Below are positions 4,541 through 45,205 of a DNA stretch of 51,702 bases, one piece after another. The translations under genes were made by a program, and so were the position numbers. The stretch lies in NCBI GenBank assembly GCA_045650885.1, contig JAZRRQ010000012.1, positions 1 through 51,702 on the forward strand. The letters run 5' to 3'. The notes beneath the pieces were generated by a model that did not search any database, was not told where the DNA came from, and was given only the letters and a program-made list of their open reading frames with translations. The first letter of the stretch is position 1; each line of letters begins with the position of its first letter. The stretch is from Vescimonas sp. Lineage in GTDB: Bacteria > Bacillota > Clostridia > Oscillospirales > Oscillospiraceae.

Positions 4541-6094
4541 ATGAAACTGGCCCGAACCAAAAATGCGTTCCGCAATACTGCCTGGGGCGCCATATACCGC
4601 TTCGTGGCGTTGATCGGCCCCTTTGCTATCAAGACCATCATCATCAAACGCCTCGGTCTGGAGTACAGCGGTCTGAACACCATCTTCAACTCCATTTTGA
4701 CGGTGCTGAATCTGGCCAATCTGGGCTTCAGCAGCTCATTGGTCTATACCATGTACGATGCCGTGGCCCGGGAAGACCATCCGGCCATCTGCGCCATGCT
4801 GAACTTCTTCCGCAAGGTGTACCGCATCATCGGCCTGGTGATTTTGGGCATGGGTCTTTGCGTGATTCCCTTCCTGCCTCAGCTGGTGGGCGAAGGCGTC
4901 CCCCCCGGTGCCAACCTGTATGTGATGTGGCTGCTGTACCTGTCCGCCACGGTGATGGACTACGTGCTCTTCGGCTATGTCAACGCCATCTTCTCGGCCT
5001 ATCAGCGGGAAGATACCCGCCTGAAGATCATGGTGGTGCGCTATATCGTGCAGTACGCTCTGCAGATCGTGATCCTGGCCGTCTTTGCCGACTATTACCT
5101 CTACCTCATTACGCTGCCGCTGATGGTAATCCCCAACAGTCTGGCCAACTACTATGCCGCAAAAAAGCAGTTCCCCCTGATCCACTGCACCGGCATGCCC
5201 AGCAACGAAACGAAAAAAGCCATTTACCACCGGGTCAAAACCTTGTTTGCCCATAAGGTAGGTTACACCATCGTAGTCAATGTGGACAGTATTCTGATCT
5301 CTTCGGCTTTGGGCCTGTCCATCCAGTCTCTTTACAGCAACTACTATTATATTCTCAATGCTGTGGCCGCTCTGGTGGAGATCATCACCACCGGTTGCCT
5401 TGCCGGCATCGGCAACAAGCTGATCACAGACACCGAAGAGGACAACCACCGCACCTTCCTCAACCTGACCTATGGCTGGGTGGCGCTGATCGGCTTCTGC
5501 TCAACCTGTATGCTGTGCCTGTATCAGCCTTTCATCGGCGGCGTATGGGTTGGTGAACACGGTCTTTTGGACAGTTGCGTGGTGGTCCTGCTGGCACTGC
5601 TGTTCTATTTCTGGATGTTCCGCGTCATGCAGTCCACTTACCGCGATGCTGCCGGATTGTGGACGCTGGATTGGCCCAAGCCGCTGATCGGCATGGTCGT
5701 CAAACTGGCGCTGAGCATTCCCCTCATCCGCATAACCGGTCACGTCGGCGGCGCGCTGCTGCCCACCATTCTCATTCAGCTGCTGCTCTATTTCCCCTGG
5801 GAAGTGTATCTTCTGTATCACCACATTTTCCACCGCAGCTGTTGGGCATACGTGGCACGGATGTTCAAGTACACCCTGCTGACCATCATCAGCGGCGCAC
5901 TCAGCTATGGCTGCAGTCTTTGGCTCTTCCCTGCCAACTCCCTGCTGACATTCCTGGGCCGTCTGTGCATCGTCTGCGTTATCTTCCCCGCCGTCTGGAT
6001 CGGCACTACCTTCCGCACCGAGGAGTTTCGGGCTATGCTGCAGCTGGGCCGCCGCATCCTCGGTAAATTCCTGCCCCGCGGCAAGACCGCCTGA
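4541..6094 (+). CDS. Polysaccharide/teichoic-acid flippase (Wzx/MOP superfamily)
   Basis: 517 aa with many hydrophobic segments; RTKNAFRN...LNLANLGF N-terminus typical of Wzx-like exporters; locus context. Confidence 0.8.
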   Translation: MKLARTKNAFRNTAWGAIYRFVALIGPFAIKTIIIKRLGLEYSGLNTIFNSILTVLNLANLGFSSSLVYTMYDAVAREDHPAICAMLNFFRKVYRIIGLVILGMGLCVIPFLPQLVGEGVPPGANLYVMWLLYLSATVMDYVLFGYVNAIFSAYQREDTRLKIMVVRYIVQYALQIVILAVFADYYLYLITLPLMVIPNSLANYYAAKKQFPLIHCTGMPSNETKKAIYHRVKTLFAHKVGYTIVVNVDSILISSALGLSIQSLYSNYYYILNAVAALVEIITTGCLAGIGNKLITDTEEDNHRTFLNLTYGWVALIGFCSTCMLCLYQPFIGGVWVGEHGLLDSCVVVLLALLFYFWMFRVMQSTYRDAAGLWTLDWPKPLIGMVVKLALSIPLIRITGHVGGALLPTILIQLLLYFPWEVYLLYHHIFHRSCWAYVARMFKYTLLTIISGALSYGCSLWLFPANSLLTFLGRLCIVCVIFPAVWIGTTFRTEEFRAMLQLGRRILGKFLPRGKTA

Positions 6095-12732: not shown

Positions 12733-12738
12733 GCCGTG

Positions 12739-12766
12739 ATAGGGACTTCCCCCGCCGTCATAAGAT
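12739..12766 (+). promoter_or_regulatory. Sigma-E/sigma-K-type promoter of sigK
   Basis: ATA, 17 nt, CATAAGAT, just upstream of RBS AAAGGAGG. Confidence 0.55.
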
Positions 12767-12787: not shown

Positions 12788-13422
12788 ATGATTTCAGCAG
12801 CACTGCTGCTACTTTCGCAAAGTCTGTTTTTCTCTTTACACCTGGCGGGCAATCCCGGCTCTTTTCCCCAGCCCCTGTCGGCCCGCGAGGAACAGGAGTG
12901 TCTGGACCGCTGGGCAGAGGGTGATCTGGCGGCCCGTAACCGGCTGGTGGAACACAATCTCCGTCTGGTGGCCCATATCATCAAGAAATACTACACGCAG
13001 GCCGACAATCAGGATGATCTCATCTCCATCGGTACCATCGGCCTCATCAAAGCCGTCAATACATTCCGCAGTGATAAGAACATCCGGCTGGCCACTTATG
13101 CGGCACGGTGCATTGAAAACGAGATCCTGATGTATTTTCGCGCCCAACGCAAGCTGCAAAGCGAGGTCTCCCTCTCCGACACCATTGAAACCGACGGCAG
13201 CGGCGACTCGCTGTATCTTCTGGACATCGTGGGAACGGATGACACCATGCTCTCAGACCTGCAGGATAAGGACAACTGCCTGAAAGTGCGCCGCGCCGTG
13301 CAGGAATGTCTGACCGATCGGGAAGCCGATATCATCCGCCGCCGCTACGGGCTGGACGGCTTTACGCCCCAAACCCAGCGGCAGGTGGCTAATCTCTACG
13401 GCATCAGTCGCAGTTATGTATC
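12788..13422 (+). CDS. sigK: Pro-sigma-K, 5' part, interrupted in region 4.2 (the integrated ORF runs on to a stop at 13444)
   Basis: Hydrophobic pro-sequence, SFPQPLS, LVEHNLRLVAHIIKKY, DDLISIGTIGLIKAV, RLATYAARCIENEILM, TQRQVANLYGISRSYVS, then non-homologous tail RRYCK*. Confidence 0.95.
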
Positions 13423-13441
13423 GCGCCGCCGTTATTGTAAA
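13415..13441. repeat. Left att site: core TATGTATC, 9 nt, arm TTATTGTAAA
   Basis: Arm 13432-13441 is the exact reverse complement of 18224-18233 and lies the same distance from its core. Confidence 0.85.
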
Positions 13442-13593
13442 TGACGAGAAAGTTCTGTAAATTCTTCCGAATACATGGGCTGCTTTTTGATATCATCCAG
13501 ACACAAGTACAACGGAATGAATCTTTTGGGCAACATATTTTCCGCAGTTTCAGCGCATTCTATCTTTCAAGACGAGACAAGGATGTGGAACGA

Positions 13594-15570
13594 TTGAAAA
13601 ATCATTTGTGTAACGAGACAAGCCCCTATTTGCTCCAGCACGCAGACAATCCCGTGGATTGGTATCCCTGGGGTGAGGAGGCGTTCCGAAAGGCACGGGA
13701 AGAGGATAAACCGATTTTCCTCAGCATCGGCTACAGCACCTGCCACTGGTGTCATGTGATGGCACACGAGAGCTTTGAGGATGCGGAGATCGCAGAGATT
13801 CTGAACCGGCACTTTATCTCCATCAAGGTGGACAAGGAAGAGCGGCCGGACGTTGACAGCATCTATATGGCGGTCTGTCAGGCCTTTACCGGAAGCGGCG
13901 GCTGGCCCACCAGTATCTTTATGACAGCAGATCAAAAACCCTTTTTTGCCGGCACCTATTTCCCTAACCGCGCCCGGGGCCGCATGATCGGCCTGCGGGA
14001 ACTGCTGAACCTCATCCACGAAAAGTGGAATAGCGAGCGCCGGCTCTTGCTTAATCAGGCAGAGAAAATTGTCGCACACTTGGAAAAGGACGCTGAGGCG
14101 GGAAACGCAGCTTCGGCAGTTGCGGAAAGGGAGCACCTGATCCCGTCGGCTGTCCAGCTCTATCGGCGCATTTACGACAGAGTATATGGCGGCTTTGGTG
14201 GGGCACCGAAATTCCCAACACCCCACAATCTTCTCTTTCTGCTGACCTGTTATGAAAGGCAGGGCGATGCGTCCTGTCTGGAAATGGCGGAGCATACCCT
14301 GCTTCAGATGTATCGCGGTGGCCTGTTTGACCACATCGGCTTTGGATTTTGTCGGTATTCCACAGACGAGCGGTTTCTGGCCCCTCATTTTGAGAAGATG
14401 CTGTACGACAACGCCCTCTTGATCCTGGCCTACTGCAAGGCGTATGAAGTGACTGGCAAACTGCTGTATCTGGAAGTGGCTGAGAAAACGCCCGCCTATA
14501 TTCTGCGGGAGATGACCGCTCCGGAAGGTGGATTTTACAGCGCTCAGGACGCCGACAGCGATGGAGAAGAAGGAAAATATTACCTCTTTGTCCCGGAGGA
14601 GCTCAAAAACCTGCTGGGGCAGCAGGAGGGCGAGGACTTTTGCCGTCACTTCGATATTACCGATGGCGGCAATTTCGAGGGGAAGAACATTCCCAATCTG
14701 CTCAAAAGCGATTACTGGGAAACGTGCAGCGATGAGGTTCTGGCGCGTGTCCTGCAATACCGCAGGGAGCGCAATTTCCTCCATCTGGACGATAAAATTC
14801 TGACGGCGTGGAACGGACTGATGATTGCGGCCATGTGCCGGCTGTACCAGAACAGCGGCAATCAGATATATTTGGATGCCGCCAGGCAGGCGGATTATTT
14901 TATTCAGAAGAATCTGTGTGACAAGACCGGATTGTATGTCAGCTATCGCGATGGAAGGCGGGGCGTGAAGGGATTTTTGAGCGACTATGCCGCTTATCTC
15001 TTTGCCCAGCTTGCCCTGTATGGCGCAACGCTGGAAAGTGGCTACCTGGCCCGGGCAGAGCAGCTCTGCCGGGAGGGGCAGGACAAGTTCCGGGACTCGA
15101 AAAACGGCGGCTTTTATCTCTACGGGACGGAAAATGAGTCTCTGATCCTGCGGCCCAAGGAAGACTATGACGGTGCGATCCCCAGCGGAAACTCTTTGAT
15201 GGCGTGGAATCTGGTGCGGCTGTCCCACCTTACCGGCGATGAGGCATACCGGCATCAGGCGGAAGAGCAACTGAATTTCCTCGGTGGGAAAGCAAGGCAA
15301 TATCCCATCGGCCACGGCATGTTCCTGCTGGCTCTTTTGGCGTATGAGATGCCTGCTGCAAAGGTGACAGTGGTGCCCGGAGAAGAGGAAACCATCGACA
15401 CGCTGCCCGTGAAGCTTCCGCCGGACACGGCCGTGACGCTTCTTCGTAAACCAACAGCGGAATACCCGCTGAAAGACGGGAAAACGACCTTTTATGTCTG
15501 TAAAGACCACAGCTGCCTGCCGCCGGTGAATGACTTAAGCAAGATCGTGAAGAATGTAAGAGGTGATTGA
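13594..15570 (+). CDS. yyaL: YyaL/SSP411-family thioredoxin-domain protein
   Basis: [67 protein letters not shown]; probable TTG start at 13594 (frame open from 13441). Confidence 0.9.
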
Positions 15571-15572
15571 CA

Positions 15573-15833
15573 ATGGCAAAGAAAGGAATGGCACGGCCCG
15601 ACTGGACCCATACCGAACCCCGCAACGAGGTTTCTCCGGTTCCCAAAATTCAGGGTAAGGCCAAGAGCGGAAAGGAAAAGGCGAACCCCATTATTGCCGG
15701 AACAAGTGGTGCAGAGCAAAAAGTGTATCACACAGAAAAACCTATCTCCAAAGCGTACCGGGTCATGGACAACGATCTGGCCCGTGATAACGTGGAAAAC
15801 GACATCCCGGCTGCAGATCTGGAAGATATCTGA
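15573..15833 (+). CDS. Small hydrophilic hypothetical protein (86 aa)
   Basis: RBS GAGGTG, ATG 2 nt after the yyaL stop; basic N-terminus, acidic C-terminus. Confidence 0.7.
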   Translation: MAKKGMARPDWTHTEPRNEVSPVPKIQGKAKSGKEKANPIIAGTSGAEQKVYHTEKPISKAYRVMDNDLARDNVENDIPAADLEDI

Positions 15834-15885
15834 CGGCATCACCTCCCATCATCTTTTTGCGTAAGTTGATGGGAGGTGATTTTTT

Positions 15886-16332
15886 ATGGTTCGTTGTCCT
15901 GCTTGTCCCGATGCAGTTGCCCGGATCAAAGGTGGGGCGGATGCCCCGCACTTATGCGGCGAGGTGCGCTTCTATCAGGAGTGCGGAAATGTTCTGATCG
16001 TGGCGGACATCTCCGGAATGCCGACTTGCGGCGGAACGGGATTCTTTGCTCTGCACATTCATGAGGGCGGCTCCTGCGGCGGTGAAGGCTTTGCTCAGAC
16101 GGGAGGCCACTACAATCCGAAGGAAATGGCGCATCCCAATCATGCGGGGGATCTTCCTCCGCTGATGCGGTGCGGTGACCGCGCCTTTTTGGCGGTGCGA
16201 AGCAACCGCTTTTGTGTGCAGGAGATCATGGGAAAAACGGTGGTGATCCACGATGGTCCGGATGATTTCCGTTCACAGCCGGCGGGAAACGCGGGGATGA
16301 AAATTGCCTGCGGTGTAATATGCAAAAAATAA
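15886..16332 (+). CDS. Cu/Zn superoxide dismutase family protein without a signal peptide
   Basis: LHIHE, GGHYNP, HPNHAGDLP, VVIH, AGNAGMKIACGVI; RBS GGGAGGTG. Confidence 0.9.
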   Translation: MVRCPACPDAVARIKGGADAPHLCGEVRFYQECGNVLIVADISGMPTCGGTGFFALHIHEGGSCGGEGFAQTGGHYNPKEMAHPNHAGDLPPLMRCGDRAFLAVRSNRFCVQEIMGKTVVIHDGPDDFRSQPAGNAGMKIACGVICKK

Positions 16333-16364
16333 GCGGCACGCAGTCTGTGTTTCTAAAAATCAGA

Positions 16365-16390
16365 GATGAGCCATTGGCTCATCGCTTTTT
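16365..16390 (+). terminator. Terminator between cargo and recombination module
   Basis: GATGAGCC-att-GGCTCATC followed by GCTTTTT. Confidence 0.65.
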
Positions 16391-16402
16391 GCATGCCGCA
16401 TG

Positions 16403-16431
16403 GCAAATCACTTCAGGATTTTGCATAGTCT
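16403..16431 (+). promoter_or_regulatory. Sigma-E/sigma-K-type promoter upstream of the 46-aa ORF and recombinase
   Basis: GCAAAT, 15 nt, CATAGTCT, then AAAAGGAGG. Confidence 0.45.
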
Positions 16432-16456
16432 GTACCAGAGCAAAAGGAGGTGTGCC

Positions 16457-16597
16457 ATGAATACGCAGGAAGTGATGATCAACTGTTGTTATGCCCATGA
16501 CGGAACAGCCGTCCAGGATATTTTGAAGTCATCCTTTGCCGCCTTCCTCAAGCGGAAGATTGAAAATTTTGCACCCGGGGCATCCGGCCATGTATGA
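16457..16597 (+). CDS. 46-aa ORF directly upstream of the recombinase (candidate recombination directionality factor)
   Basis: Strong RBS AAAAGGAGG; MNTQEVMINCCYAHDGTAVQDILKSSFAAFLKRKIENF...; function inferred from position only. Confidence 0.6.
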   Translation: MNTQEVMINCCYAHDGTAVQDILKSSFAAFLKRKIENFAPGASGHV

Positions 16598-16636
16598 GCG
16601 CCATGATGAATGGCGGCTTATTTCAGGAGGACAACT

Positions 16637-18214
16637 ATGTACTTGGCAATCAGCAACCCCATGGATTACCATGTGGCGCTATACATCCGTTTATCAAAGG
16701 AGGATGAGACCGAAGGACCATCCCAAAGTGTAACCAACCAGAAATCCCTGCTCGATGAATTTGTTCGGCAACATTGTCTTTCCGTCTACGACACCTATAT
16801 CGATGACGGATGGAGCGGTACCAGTTTTGACCGCCCAGACTTTCAGCGCATGATCGGTGACATTGAAGCCAGGAAGGTCAACATGGTCATCACCAAGGAC
16901 CTGTCCCGGCTGGGCCGTGACTATATCATGACCGGTCATTATATGGAGCGCTACTTCCCTGAAAAGAACGTACGCTACATTTCCTTGCTGGACGGCATCG
17001 ACACCGGTGTGGAATCCAGTGCCAATGACATTACCCCGTTCCGTGCCATCATGAACGACATGTACGCCAAAGATATTTCCAAGAAGATCAAATCCGTCAA
17101 GCGGGATAAGCAGCGCAAGGGTCAGTTCATCGGCGGCAAGCCCATGTTTGGCTACAAGATGCACCCGACGGAGAAGAACCAAATCGTGGTGGACGAAGAA
17201 GCGGCTCAAATCGTACGACGGATCTTTGCCATGGCGCTAGAAGGTGTCAGCTGCCGCAAAATCGCCACGCAGCTTAACGAAGATCATGTGCCAACGCCTG
17301 CCACTTACGCAGGGTTGACGGTAGCCAATCCCGGCCCTTACACCGGTCTGTGGCGCAGTGAGCGCATTTCCGAGATGCTGCAAAACGAGACCTATATCGG
17401 CAACATGGTGCAGGGACGGTCAGTGAAAATCAGCTACAAGTCCCAAAAGTGTCTGCGGCAAGCGCGGGAGAACTGGGTGGTAGTGGAAAATACACACGAG
17501 CCTTTAATTGATGCCGACACCTTCCAAAAGGTGCAGGTGTTGCTCAGCAGCCGTAAGCGCACCAAGAGCCGCACCTATGACTTTCTGCTGCGTGGCCTGA
17601 TCTTCTGCCATGAGTGCGGTTATCCCATGGCGGTCATTAACCGCAAAAACGCAGCGGGGGAAGATCGACTGTTTCTGATCTGCCGTACCTATCAACGCTT
17701 TACCAATGCGGGGGTCTGCACCTGCCACTCCATCAAGGAAAAGACGGTGACCGATGCTGTTCTTGCCAAGGTGCGGGAGGTCTGCGAGTCCTATCTGAAT
17801 CCGGTGGAGCTGCTGCCCATGGCTGAGGCTGCGGTGTCCGAAGCGGATAAAGCAGCCAGCGCAGAAGCGAAGATCCAGTCCCTGCGTTCCAGACTCGACA
17901 GCCTGACCGTCAATCTGGATAAGGTATATATGGATAAACTCAGCGGCATTTTATCTGAGGCAGACTTCCTGCGCATCTATCCGAAGATCAAGGAGGACCG
18001 CGCACAACTGGAAGATCAATTGAAAACTTTGGAACAGGAAAAAGAGAACCCCGTCCCCCAAGAGGACAGGGCGAAGGAACTGGTACAGCGCTTTCTGGAA
18101 TCCGTTCCCACCAACCGGGAACTGCTATTCAGCCTCATCGAGCGAGTGGAACTGACCGAAGACAAACAAGTCCATATCAAATTCCGCTTCCGTAAACCGG
18201 AAGCAATTTCTTAA
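16637..18214 (+). CDS. Large serine recombinase (SpoIVCA/CisA-like)
   Basis: YIRLS catalytic Ser, DDGWSG, KDLSRLGRD, recombinase domain, zinc ribbon CHECG...C...C, coiled-coil tail; RBS CAGGAGG. Confidence 0.95.
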   Translation: MYLAISNPMDYHVALYIRLSKEDETEGPSQSVTNQKSLLDEFVRQHCLSVYDTYIDDGWSGTSFDRPDFQRMIGDIEARKVNMVITKDLSRLGRDYIMTGHYMERYFPEKNVRYISLLDGIDTGVESSANDITPFRAIMNDMYAKDISKKIKSVKRDKQRKGQFIGGKPMFGYKMHPTEKNQIVVDEEAAQIVRRIFAMALEGVSCRKIATQLNEDHVPTPATYAGLTVANPGPYTGLWRSERISEMLQNETYIGNMVQGRSVKISYKSQKCLRQARENWVVVENTHEPLIDADTFQKVQVLLSSRKRTKSRTYDFLLRGLIFCHECGYPMAVINRKNAAGEDRLFLICRTYQRFTNAGVCTCHSIKEKTVTDAVLAKVREVCESYLNPVELLPMAEAAVSEADKAASAEAKIQSLRSRLDSLTVNLDKVYMDKLSGILSEADFLRIYPKIKEDRAQLEDQLKTLEQEKENPVPQEDRAKELVQRFLESVPTNRELLFSLIERVELTEDKQVHIKFRFRKPEAIS

Positions 18215-18223
18215 GGCCAACCG

Positions 18224-18250
18224 TTTACAATAATCGAGTCGCTATGTATC
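18224..18250. repeat. Right att site: arm TTTACAATAA, 9 nt, core TATGTATC
   Basis: Mirror of the left site; starts 10 nt after the recombinase stop. Confidence 0.85.
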
Positions 18251-18305
18251 CCGTCTGGAGAAGCGGGCGCTGGAAAAGCTGGAGCATGCCATCGGCGAGA
18301 TCTGA
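18243..18305 (+). CDS. sigK: Sigma-K 3' fragment ([20 protein letters not shown])
   Basis: Matches the missing end of region 4.2 (consensus YVSRIEKxALxKL); not in the ORF track. Confidence 0.92.
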
Positions 18306-18348: not shown

Positions 18349-18469
18349 ATGCCAAAAAGGAATGGGAAAACCTATGTTTTCCGGATCCGCCCTCCTGCAG
18401 ATCCCTTATCTCCTCTGGGTCACTTTTGCCGCCTATCTCAACTACGGCGTTTGGATGCTGAATCGGTAG
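18349..18469 (+). pseudogene. tspO: TspO/MBR-family remnant with a large internal deletion
   Basis: [26 protein letters not shown] is the typical last helix of TspO; a short [11 protein letters not shown] stub precedes it in another frame. Confidence 0.7.
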
Positions 18470-44362: not shown

Positions 44363-45124
44363 TTACGCGCGCTTGCGCTTCATCTGTAACTGCAATCTGT
44401 CTGCAATGAGGGCGATGAACTCACTATTGGTGGGTTTGCCCTTGGCGGAGTTGACGGTATAGCCGAAGTAGTGCTGCAGCGTCTCCAGATCGCCACGATC
44501 CCATGCCACCTCGATGGCATGGCGGATGGCGCGCTCCACACGGGAAGGCGTGGTGGCAAAGCGCTTGGCCACCTCGGGATAGAGCACCTTGGTGACGGCA
44601 TTGATCACATCCATATCGTCCACGGCGATCATGATGGCTTCGCGCAGGTACTGATAGCCCTTGATGTGGGCGGGGACGCCGATCTCATGGATAATGCCGG
44701 TCACAAGGCCTTCCAACGCGGGAGCATGTACCTCCTCCCGCTCCTCCTGAGGGTTGACGGCACGGCGCATATGCTCCATCAAAGAGCTGTCGGAAACCGG
44801 CTTAGGCAGGAAAAAGTAAACGCCCAAATCCGTTGCCTGCTGCACCATACGGTCACTGCAGAAGGAGGACGTGACGATGACCTGCGGCATCTCCGCCTGC
44901 ATTGCCTGCAAACGGTTGAGTACCCCGAACCCATCCAGTCCGGGAAGCACCAGATCCATGATCACCAGCTGCGGCTTGCGTTCAAGTGCCATTTGCACCA
45001 ACTGCTCGCCATCACCGGTGCTGCCCACCACACAAAATTCACCCGTTTCTTCTATTGTATCTTTCAGCAAAATGCGAAACTCTTCACTGGCGTCTGCCAA
45101 GATCACGCGTACTTCGTTTGCCAT
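44363..45124 (-). CDS. spo0A: Stage 0 sporulation master regulator
   Basis: Receiver domain; [52 protein letters not shown]. Confidence 0.98.
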
Positions 45125-45205
45125 ATGATCCCTGTCCTTTTCCACTCATTTTTCGCGTTTTGCTCCGCCGGAGGGCCAATCTCCTCCATCGCCGGAGCTG
45201 TATAT

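What the first reader, a model, noticed from the sequence alone, without database searches (positions are those of the whole stretch)
12788..18305. sigK is split inside its region 4.2 helix by a compact 4.8-kb skin-like element
Seen: SigK homology stops at GISRSYVSR, and the missing [13 protein letters not shown]...* reappears 4828 bp downstream just past a large serine recombinase. Joining at the shared TATGTATC gives an in-frame 229-aa pro-sigma-K. Known: the skin elements of Bacillus subtilis and Clostridioides difficile are excised in the mother cell by SpoIVCA-type recombinases, are larger and, as I recall, interrupt sigK further upstream. Inference: an independently acquired, minimal, phage-gene-free developmental DNA rearrangement at a different site. 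Annotation pipelines would miss it because the 5' ORF looks almost complete and the 3' piece is only 20 codons.
Basis: partly seen in the sequence, partly recalled or inferred. Interest (0 to 1): 0.85.

Follow-up and report, generated by a model that had tools for sequence, protein, structure and literature searches.

The report
Mobile element splitting sigK's last helix
In this uncultured gut bacterium the gene for the late spore-forming sigma factor SigK is cut 19 codons before its end by a 4.8-kb insert with its own serine recombinase, which likely cuts itself out during spore formation and restores the gene; it is one copy of a widespread family whose target site already sits, unnamed, in a published recombinase table.

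Summary
Observation confirmed. sigK (12788) is split at the GT of Val211 in region 4.2 by a 4,828-bp element. Removing it gives a 229-aa SigK and restores the layout of the closest congeners.

The recombination unit is a CATA-type promoter, a 46-aa ORF, an intact large serine recombinase and palindromic att arms. The small ORF precedes the recombinase in 63 of 63 relatives and is predicted to bind it like a directionality factor (0.63 vs control 0.01). B. subtilis skin has the same layout.

It is not a one-off: 76 of the 80 best GTDB hits flank a sigK half at this codon, in either orientation, often with anti-phage cargo. Metagenomes hold attP junctions of relatives. Excision during sporulation is inferred, not shown.

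Novelty is lower than claimed. Published skins reach 2.6 kb, non-phage intervening elements are known, and this integrase cluster with this attB is in Durrant 2023's supplement, not recognised as sigK. I found no text describing the site, but Galperin's Table S7 and Mageeney 2020 were unreadable. This scan found the same site before on other genomes. New variant of a known kind; interest 0.35.

The parts
12738..12766 (+). Likely sigK promoter (GATAGGG-N14-CATAAGAT; mother-cell sigma type, consensus recalled)
   Evidence: the same arrangement upstream of many congener sigK genes
12788..13419 (+). 5' part of sigK (pro-sequence-like N-terminus to the GT of Val211); the frame reads on into the element and stops at 13444
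13390..13447 (+). attL: sigK arm, central GT 13418-13419, element arm with TTATTGTAAA at 13432-13441; 8-bp repeat copy 13415-13422
13420..18247 (.). The intervening element, 4,828 bp, GC 0.53 (flanks 0.55 and 0.59)
13594..15570 (+). Cargo: DUF255/YyaL-type thioredoxin-domain protein, 658 aa from the likely TTG start
   Evidence: PF03190 E 4.6e-77; start chosen by script
15573..15833 (+). Cargo: 86-aa protein of no known family
   Evidence: no Pfam, NCBIfam, PADLOC or PHROG hit; 80-81% identical copies in congeners
15886..16332 (+). Cargo: Cu/Zn superoxide dismutase-family protein, 148 aa
   Evidence: PF00080 E 8.1e-27
16365..16383 (+). Terminator-like hairpin between the cargo and the recombination unit
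16403..16431 (+). Conserved promoter-like motif GCAA-N17-CATAGTCT ahead of the small ORF
   Evidence: motif in 53 of 63 relatives, 0 of 63 coding controls, 0.9% of shuffles
16457..16597 (+). 46-aa ORF, predicted recombination directionality factor
   Evidence: 63 of 63 relatives; pN/pS 0.35; complex prediction 0.63 vs 0.01
16637..18214 (+). Large serine recombinase, 525 aa, intact (YIRLS with Ser20, DLSRLGR, four zinc-ribbon cysteines)
18218..18275 (+). attR: element arm with TTTACAATAA at 18224-18233, central GT 18246-18247, sigK arm; 8-bp repeat copy 18243-18250
18248..18305 (+). 3' end of sigK (58 nt after the crossover; rest of the region 4.2 helix and the stop)

Best explanation
The only sigK found in this genome is split at the GT of Val211 in region 4.2 by a 4.8-kb non-phage element, and the element's serine recombinase, likely switched to excision by the 46-aa protein encoded just ahead of it, would cut the element out in the sporulating mother cell and restore a 229-aa pro-SigK.

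Steps and their status. (1) Integration by attP x attB crossover at the GT: shown by anatomy and by empty sites in congeners. (2) The split gene yields a 218-aa product lacking the second half of the recognition helix, so it should not read -35 boxes: inferred from sigma-70 region 4.2 biology. (3) A mother-cell sigma factor (likely SigE, helped by SpoIIID in many family members) transcribes the small ORF and recombinase: inferred from the motif and by analogy with B. subtilis PsigE-skr-spoIVCA. (4) The small protein adds a beta strand to the recombinase's zinc domain and clamps the coiled-coil base, allowing attL x attR: predicted. (5) Excision restores sigK and releases a 4.8-kb circle, while the spore keeps the element: attP junctions are seen for relatives, the timing is inferred. 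The cargo is incidental: here three host-type genes, in many relatives anti-phage genes.
For: Exact in-frame restoration and att symmetry. Empty syntenic site in the three closest congeners. 65 of 80 GTDB loci have the 3' sigK piece and 11 of 80 the 5' piece next to the recombinase; all 24 complete relatives cross at the same GT. Small ORF in 63 of 63 loci with enough upstream DNA, pN/pS 0.35 over 14 close pairs. Complex prediction: score 0.63, best of 3 controls 0.01; the mark was reached by 116 of 157 solved complexes and 2 of 215 mismatched pairs; runs agree in at least 87% of contacts, partner pLDDT at least 69. The interface (small-ORF residues 8-13 against recombinase 510-521, helix against 482-502) fits the pattern described for verified RDFs (PMC12286644). 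Promoter-like motif in 53 of 63 vs 0 of 63. Same order of parts as B. subtilis skin (PMC6957869). attP-form junctions in nature: 9 of 19 metagenome motif hits lie beside a clade recombinase, one joining DNA 96% identical to one congener's right end to DNA 98.5% identical to another's left end. The host has spo0A, spoIIID, spoIIIAA, a SigE-like and SigF/G-like hits and M50 peptidases.
Against: No read or contig shows this element's own excision junction: the only runs offered were low-depth contigs of relatives. Nothing ties the attP junctions of relatives to sporulation, and none of the fully held contigs checked was circular; one attP cassette sits in a chromosome-like contig beside uvrAB and pyrE (L200). 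The -35 part of the motif differs from host spoIVA and spoIIID promoters (GCAA motif in 0 of 8, 0 of 20, and 1 of 37 sigK regions). The SpoIIID-like box found in 31 of 53 relatives is absent from this copy. The motif was picked by eye from 24 of the loci later counted. spoIVA was not found in G000 (82% complete), though 35 of 40 congeners have it. The complex score could reflect memory of solved integrase-RDF complexes.
Confidence: 0.8

Rival explanations
1. The element is an ordinary mobile island that excises at random or under stress; sigK is restored only in the cells where this happens, with no developmental control.
For: Recombinases 95-97% identical in Blautia, Lacrimispora and Lawsonibacter and patchy presence (10 of 98 genus genomes) show recent spread. 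attP forms occur outside any visible sporulation context. The motif's -35 part is not the host SigE type.
Against: The -10 box CATAnnnT and its spacing are those of the host's mother-cell promoters, and the motif is kept although cargo turns over. Tested elements in mother-cell genes use a sporulation-timed RDF.
Confidence: 0.09
2. The element is locked in and sigK is dead; this lineage no longer completes sporulation.
For: spoIVA not found in G000; the tspO-like gene after sigK has lost most of its length; no excision junction seen for this copy.
Against: Recombinase, small ORF, att arms and both sigK halves are intact, and the 3' half matches congeners at 49 of 60 nt. The assembly is 82% complete, and 14 of 14 near-complete congeners have spoIVA.
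Confidence: 0.06
3. The 218-aa product of the split gene is itself a working or regulatory sigma factor, so excision tunes rather than switches on SigK.
For: 213 of 229 residues are kept, including SRSYVSR, and the promoter is intact.
Against: The tail after Val211 is not conserved: 0 residues in 8, 4 in 12 and 8 in 4 of 24 complete relatives, which looks like a by-product of the att arm. The lost residues are conserved in all 38 intact congener genes examined.
Confidence: 0.04
4. The split is an assembly chimera.
For: The genome is a fragmented metagenome assembly (170 contigs), and no run spans the element.
Against: The shared core is 8 bp, too short to mislead an assembler, and the same junctions recur in 76 of 80 independent genomes, cultured isolates included.
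Confidence: 0.01

Closest known systems
Bacillus subtilis skin (SpoIVCA with RDF Skr; PMC6957869, passages seen)
   Same: Splits sigK; a SigE-type promoter, then a small ORF, then the serine recombinase at the element's edge.
   Different: 48-kb defective prophage; skr (64 aa) overlaps spoIVCA; site far upstream (region 2.4 ENE codons, recalled). Here 4.8 kb, no phage genes, a separate 46-aa ORF, site in region 4.2.
C. difficile skinCd (CD1231 with RDF CD1234; PMC5025042, passages), C. tetani skin, phage PhiS63 (PMC3442830, passages)
   Same: Serine recombinase element in sigK; excision needs a small SigE/SpoIIID-controlled factor (shown for skinCd).
   Different: Site 265 nt from the 3' end (PhiS63) against 58 nt here; PhiS63 integrase only 23% identical; C. 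difficile SigK lacks a pro-sequence.
The 15 skin elements of Galperin et al. 2022 (bioRxiv 10.1101/2022.02.25.481979; section 16 read)
   Same: 2.6-48 kb, 2-67 proteins, variable orientation, recombinase at the edge, unshared cargo, missed by annotation.
   Different: The text gives no insertion sites or RDFs. Fig. 2 and Table S7 were not visible, so a region-4.2 case among the 15 cannot be excluded.
Durrant et al. 2023 LSR cluster8931 (PMC10083194, supplement file 3 row 977)
   Same: Same integrase clade. Its attP arms equal those of locus L069, and its attB read on the other strand encodes the SRSYV-SRIEK stretch of sigK (both compared by eye).
   Different: Listed with target genes 'NA' and element type 'Other'; not linked to sigK, sporulation or an RDF; the identifier appears in no other supplement sheet.
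gin element in B. cereus gerE (GirC with the 42-aa RDF GirX; PMC5595907, passages)
   Same: Non-phage intervening element in a mother-cell gene with a tiny, often unannotated RDF.
   Different: Different target gene; three recombinase genes.

Membership tests
skin (sigK-intervening) elements | Interrupts sigK so that precise removal restores the frame | tested here: met
skin (sigK-intervening) elements | SpoIVCA-like large serine recombinase at the element's edge | tested here: met
   ends 31 nt before the central GT
skin (sigK-intervening) elements | attL/attR with short core and inverted arms | tested here: met
   18 of 28 pairs about GT, 13 of 200,000 random pairs; same in 24 relatives
skin (sigK-intervening) elements | No other intact sigK in the genome | tested here: inconclusive
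   none found, but the assembly is 81.7% complete
skin (sigK-intervening) elements | Excision restricted to the sporulating mother cell | not testable with these tools
   no RNA run or raw reads offered; promoter motif only suggestive
skin (sigK-intervening) elements | Insertion at one of the published sites | tested here: not met
   crossover at nt 631 of 690 against nt 427 for PhiS63; the site is not family-defining, since published skins already differ
Recombination directionality factors of large serine recombinases | Small protein encoded beside the recombinase and binding the zinc-domain/coiled-coil junction | tested here: met
   63 of 63 co-occurrence; predicted binding 0.63 vs 0.01; prediction only
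Recombination directionality factors of large serine recombinases | Needed for attL x attR and inhibits attP x attB | not testable with these tools
   needs a recombination assay
Prophage or prophage remnant | Phage structural, replication or lysis genes | tested here: not met
   none in the window element; best GenBank phage match to the recombinase 34.7%; one relative (L144) does carry phage-type replication genes
Anti-phage defence island | Carries defence-system genes | tested here: not met
   0 of 3 window cargo proteins hit PADLOC; 17 of 24 complete relatives have at least one such hit

The most novel reading that the evidence does not exclude
This is a self-taming mobile element family. 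A three-part cassette (sporulation promoter, new 45-aa RDF family, recombinase) lets cargo, very often anti-phage genes, sit in the SigK recognition-helix codon of hundreds of gut Clostridia species. The cassette moves between Oscillospiraceae and Lachnospiraceae and brings its own mother-cell timer, so any new host can still sporulate. It has flipped orientation at least four times by a change of the two central att bases, and it can stack with a second element to give a three-piece sigK. Skin-type gene editing would then be a common, infectious trait of commensal gut spore-formers, not a curiosity of a few model strains.
Probability: 0.5. Interest if true: 0.55.

Novelty: new variant of a known kind. 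Interest (0 to 1): 0.35.

Why it matters
It adds a third, easily missed insertion site to the skin phenomenon and shows it is common in gut commensals: about one in ten genomes of this genus, with cultured carriers such as Blautia wexlerae MSK.20.46, Lawsonibacter celer NSJ-47 and Pseudoflavonifractor capillosus An827. Genome-based sporulation predictions will score these sigK genes as intact or as pseudogenes. The family supplies a compact recombinase, att pair and candidate RDF that can be tested directly, and a natural series for asking how mobile DNA acquires developmental control and how att-centre changes set orientation. The principle (programmed excision from sigK) has been known since 1989, so a specialist would find it useful more than surprising.

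Tried and rejected
One search used the wrong two copies of the 8-mer; redone. The yyaL query was one base out of frame; its results were discarded and redone.

Sequencing runs: no RNA holder listed; three DNA runs of one study, kept as contigs, best share 0.22. Laid at 85% likeness they show only fragments of relatives. A contig that skips 13389 to 18241 differs from the window in the intervening letters, so it is a relative's intact sigK and not evidence of excision.

Circle test: no terminal overlap in L200 or in the 8 fully held metagenome contigs. The viral scan for the attP motif gave 1 hit without a recombinase; 8 of 19 metagenome hits had neither a recombinase nor family-like arms and were treated as chance.

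The idea that the cargo is a conserved spore cassette was rejected: none of loci L063-L159 carries yyaL, orf86 or sodC; only one other element (G067) has a yyaL homologue (47%). The idea that the element promoter equals the host spoIVA/spoIIID promoter holds only for the -10 box (8 of 25 spoIVA and 20 of 25 spoIIID loci could be parsed).

The small ORF has no Pfam, PHROG or PDB match. Its lone model is one helix (pLDDT 77.5, pTM 0.42), too small for a fold search. The rest of the 86-kb contig behind L238 could not be fetched.

Mageeney 2020 (PMC7192596) and the journal version of Galperin 2022 (PMC9210971) are not held; bioRxiv supplements are closed.
Full report
OBSERVATION. The ORF at 12788-13444 is SigK-like up to residue 213 and ends in five foreign residues. 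The 8-mer TATGTATC lies at 13415 and 18243; removing the 4,828 bp between them gives a 229-aa frame stopping at 18303-18305. Against a profile of 36 intact congener SigKs the joined product scores 452.5 bits over positions 10-237 of 239, the unjoined ORF 428.1 over 10-222. The 8-mer alone proves little (0.18 expected by chance). The inner arms, however, are an inverted repeat centred on the GT at 13418/18246, the first two bases of Val211: 18 of 28 pairs including a perfect 10-mer, a score reached by 13 of 200,000 random pairs. The three congeners with the most similar SigK (89-92%) have an unbroken gene and align to the window on both flanks with nothing between. G000 shows no second sigK; the next hit (C72, 47%) is taken to be SigE, and the assembly is 81.7% complete.

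ANATOMY. No phage gene is present. The three cargo genes occur in the same order at 60-81% identity in congeners G486 and G014, with no recombinase or sigK in the 9.3 and 14 kb fetched; in G000 their only copies are in the element. They look like a captured host block.

THE FAMILY. Of these 80, 65 have the 3' sigK piece right after the recombinase, 11 have the 5' piece there in reverse, 3 have neither and 1 is cut by the contig end. All 24 complete elements cross at the same GT, with conserved arms. They span 3,791-9,480 bp, a range capped by the 10-kb flanks; 10 more loci are larger than that. The recombinase is in 10 of 98 genomes of the genus (all 9 others followed by the 3' piece) and 21 of 401 of the order at E 1e-100 (the weakest 5 are other clades without the piece). 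Of the 40 best-scoring genus sigK loci examined, 38 are intact here and 2 split. Recombinases from Blautia, Lacrimispora and Lawsonibacter are 95-97% identical, which points to horizontal spread. Named neighbours suggest the host is an Oscillospiraceae-type gut organism (inference). On a tree of 50 of 121 sequences (all 15 reverse, 35 of 86 forward, 20 unclassified left out), well-supported branches force at least 4 orientation changes; in reversed copies the att centre reads AC relative to the recombinase. 8 of 30 loci with a visible 5' piece are split a second time near residue 97-109, and in all 8 another serine recombinase lies next to that break. 17 of 24 complete relatives carry at least one ORF hitting PADLOC at 1e-10 (Gabija, Kiwa, UG5 RT, PARIS, Pycsar effector, SoFic and others; one representative scanned per cluster, single-gene hits, not system calls), and 17 of 25 elements a tyrosine-integrase ORF. 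The window copy has neither.

DIRECTION CONTROL. The small ORF lies ahead of the recombinase in 63 of 63 GTDB loci with 350 nt upstream, has pN/pS 0.35 in 14 close pairs and no database match. Folded with recombinase residues 310-525 it scored 0.63 against a best control of 0.01; that mark was reached by 116 of 157 solved and 2 of 215 mismatched pairs; runs agreed in at least 87% of contacts, partner pLDDT at least 69. It pairs a strand with the last strand of the zinc domain and lays a helix on the coiled-coil base, as described for verified RDFs (PMC12286644, passages). This supports but does not show binding, and may partly reflect solved integrase-RDF structures. Upstream, GCAA-N16-18-CATA occurs in 53 of 63 loci, 0 of 63 coding controls and 0.9% of shuffles (motif first picked from 24 of these loci). 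Host spoIVA, spoIIID and sigK regions share the CATA box but not GCAA (0 of 8, 0 of 20, 1 of 37). A box matching the recalled B. subtilis SpoIIID consensus abuts the motif in 31 of 53 loci (0 of 53 controls) but not in the window. The SigE and SpoIIID consensus sequences are recalled; the logos in PMC517825 are figures and were not visible.

EXCISION IN NATURE. A degenerate attP motif hit 19 metagenome stretches; 9 lie beside a clade recombinase and 2 more have family-like arms. L238 joins 3 kb 96% identical to congener G433's right end to 3 kb 98.5% identical to congener G456's left interior: the junction excision would make. G425 holds an intact sigK and, on another contig, a cassette with intact attP, though that contig is chromosome-like. 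None of this gives timing, and no junction of the window's own element was seen. The host has spo0A (window 44363-45145), spoIIID, spoIIIAA and M50 peptidases; spoIVA was not found.

WHAT IS KNOWN. Galperin 2022 (abstract, passages and section 16) lists 15 skins of 2.6-48 kb in either orientation. Suzuki 2020 (passages) shows PsigE-skr-spoIVCA in B. subtilis. Serrano 2016 (passages) shows the SigE/SpoIIID-controlled RDF CD1234. Abe 2017 (passages) describes a non-phage element with a 42-aa RDF. Kim 2012 (passages) places PhiS63, skinCd and skinCt about 265 nt from the 3' end; its integrase is 23% identical to ours. PMC13141910 (passages) and PMC5553647 (passages) describe prophages in sigK without a position in the passages seen. 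Durrant 2023 (passages and supplement hits) lists cluster8931, 13 proteins, with this clade's protein and attP and an attB that I read by eye as this sigK site, target gene 'NA'. Ten paper searches (the site-directed ones are 12, 15, 39, 52, 70, 112) gave no text on a region-4.2 site. Galperin's Table S7 and Fig. 2 and Mageeney 2020 could not be seen and may bear on this. Earlier notes of this scan report the same site in other genomes; they are unchecked and are not counted as support.

VERDICT. A real skin-type element working most likely like B. subtilis skin (0.8), at a site and with an integrase and RDF family not described in the text I could reach but already present as unannotated att sequences in a public table. 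Small size and lack of phage genes are not new. New variant of a known kind; interest 0.35, or 0.55 if the family-level picture of a self-timed, horizontally spreading cassette is confirmed.

Noticed in passing
window 18377-18469: C-terminal remnant of a tspO-like gene right after sigK; congeners G452 and G441 have the whole gene there, and about 350 bp are missing in the window at 18386/18387. TspO genes are also cargo in three related elements.
   Followed up: partly
L085, L092, L101, L104, L108, L116, L130, L133 (and viral L144): sigK is cut twice: a second, unrelated serine recombinase (21-25% identity) sits at the E-NEILM codons, leaving a middle piece of about 100 codons between two elements.
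   Followed up: partly
L113 and L120, end of the recombinase gene: The recombinase frame runs through attR and stops inside the sigK 3' piece, so its last residues would change on excision.
   Followed up: no
L200 = G425:C40:13050-16200: Promoter, small ORF, recombinase and an intact attP sit next to tRNA-like genes (read by eye), pyrE, radC and uvrAB, away from an intact sigK: an attP-form cassette at another place, or part of a large excised piece.
   Followed up: partly
L072, after the recombinase (about 5380-5500): The usual arm and GT are followed by non-sigK DNA in a MAG labelled Spirochaetales with no sigK found: possible off-target insertion or misbinning.
   Followed up: partly
L197 = G204:C31: A different layout: the recombinase starts about 380 bp after attL and is co-oriented with the 5' sigK piece.
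   Followed up: no
17 of 25 complete elements, e.g. L103:6359-7489 and L110:8903-9685: A tyrosine integrase, often with a 260-aa unknown protein, lies inside the element next to the variable defence genes; possibly a nested island that loads the cargo.
   Followed up: no
G006:C24, G476, G494, G464, G447, G014:C13; G001, G019, G438, G427, G461: Congener sigK matches that start near residue 56-60 or stop near 115-121 suggest further insertion sites in sigK within this genus; L035 has a serine recombinase right before the piece starting at 64.
   Followed up: no
window 44363-45145 (-): spo0A lies on the same contig.
   Followed up: yes
table 5c, run X1: One low-depth contig joins 16399 back to 13504, bracketing the three cargo genes; too thin to interpret.
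   Followed up: no
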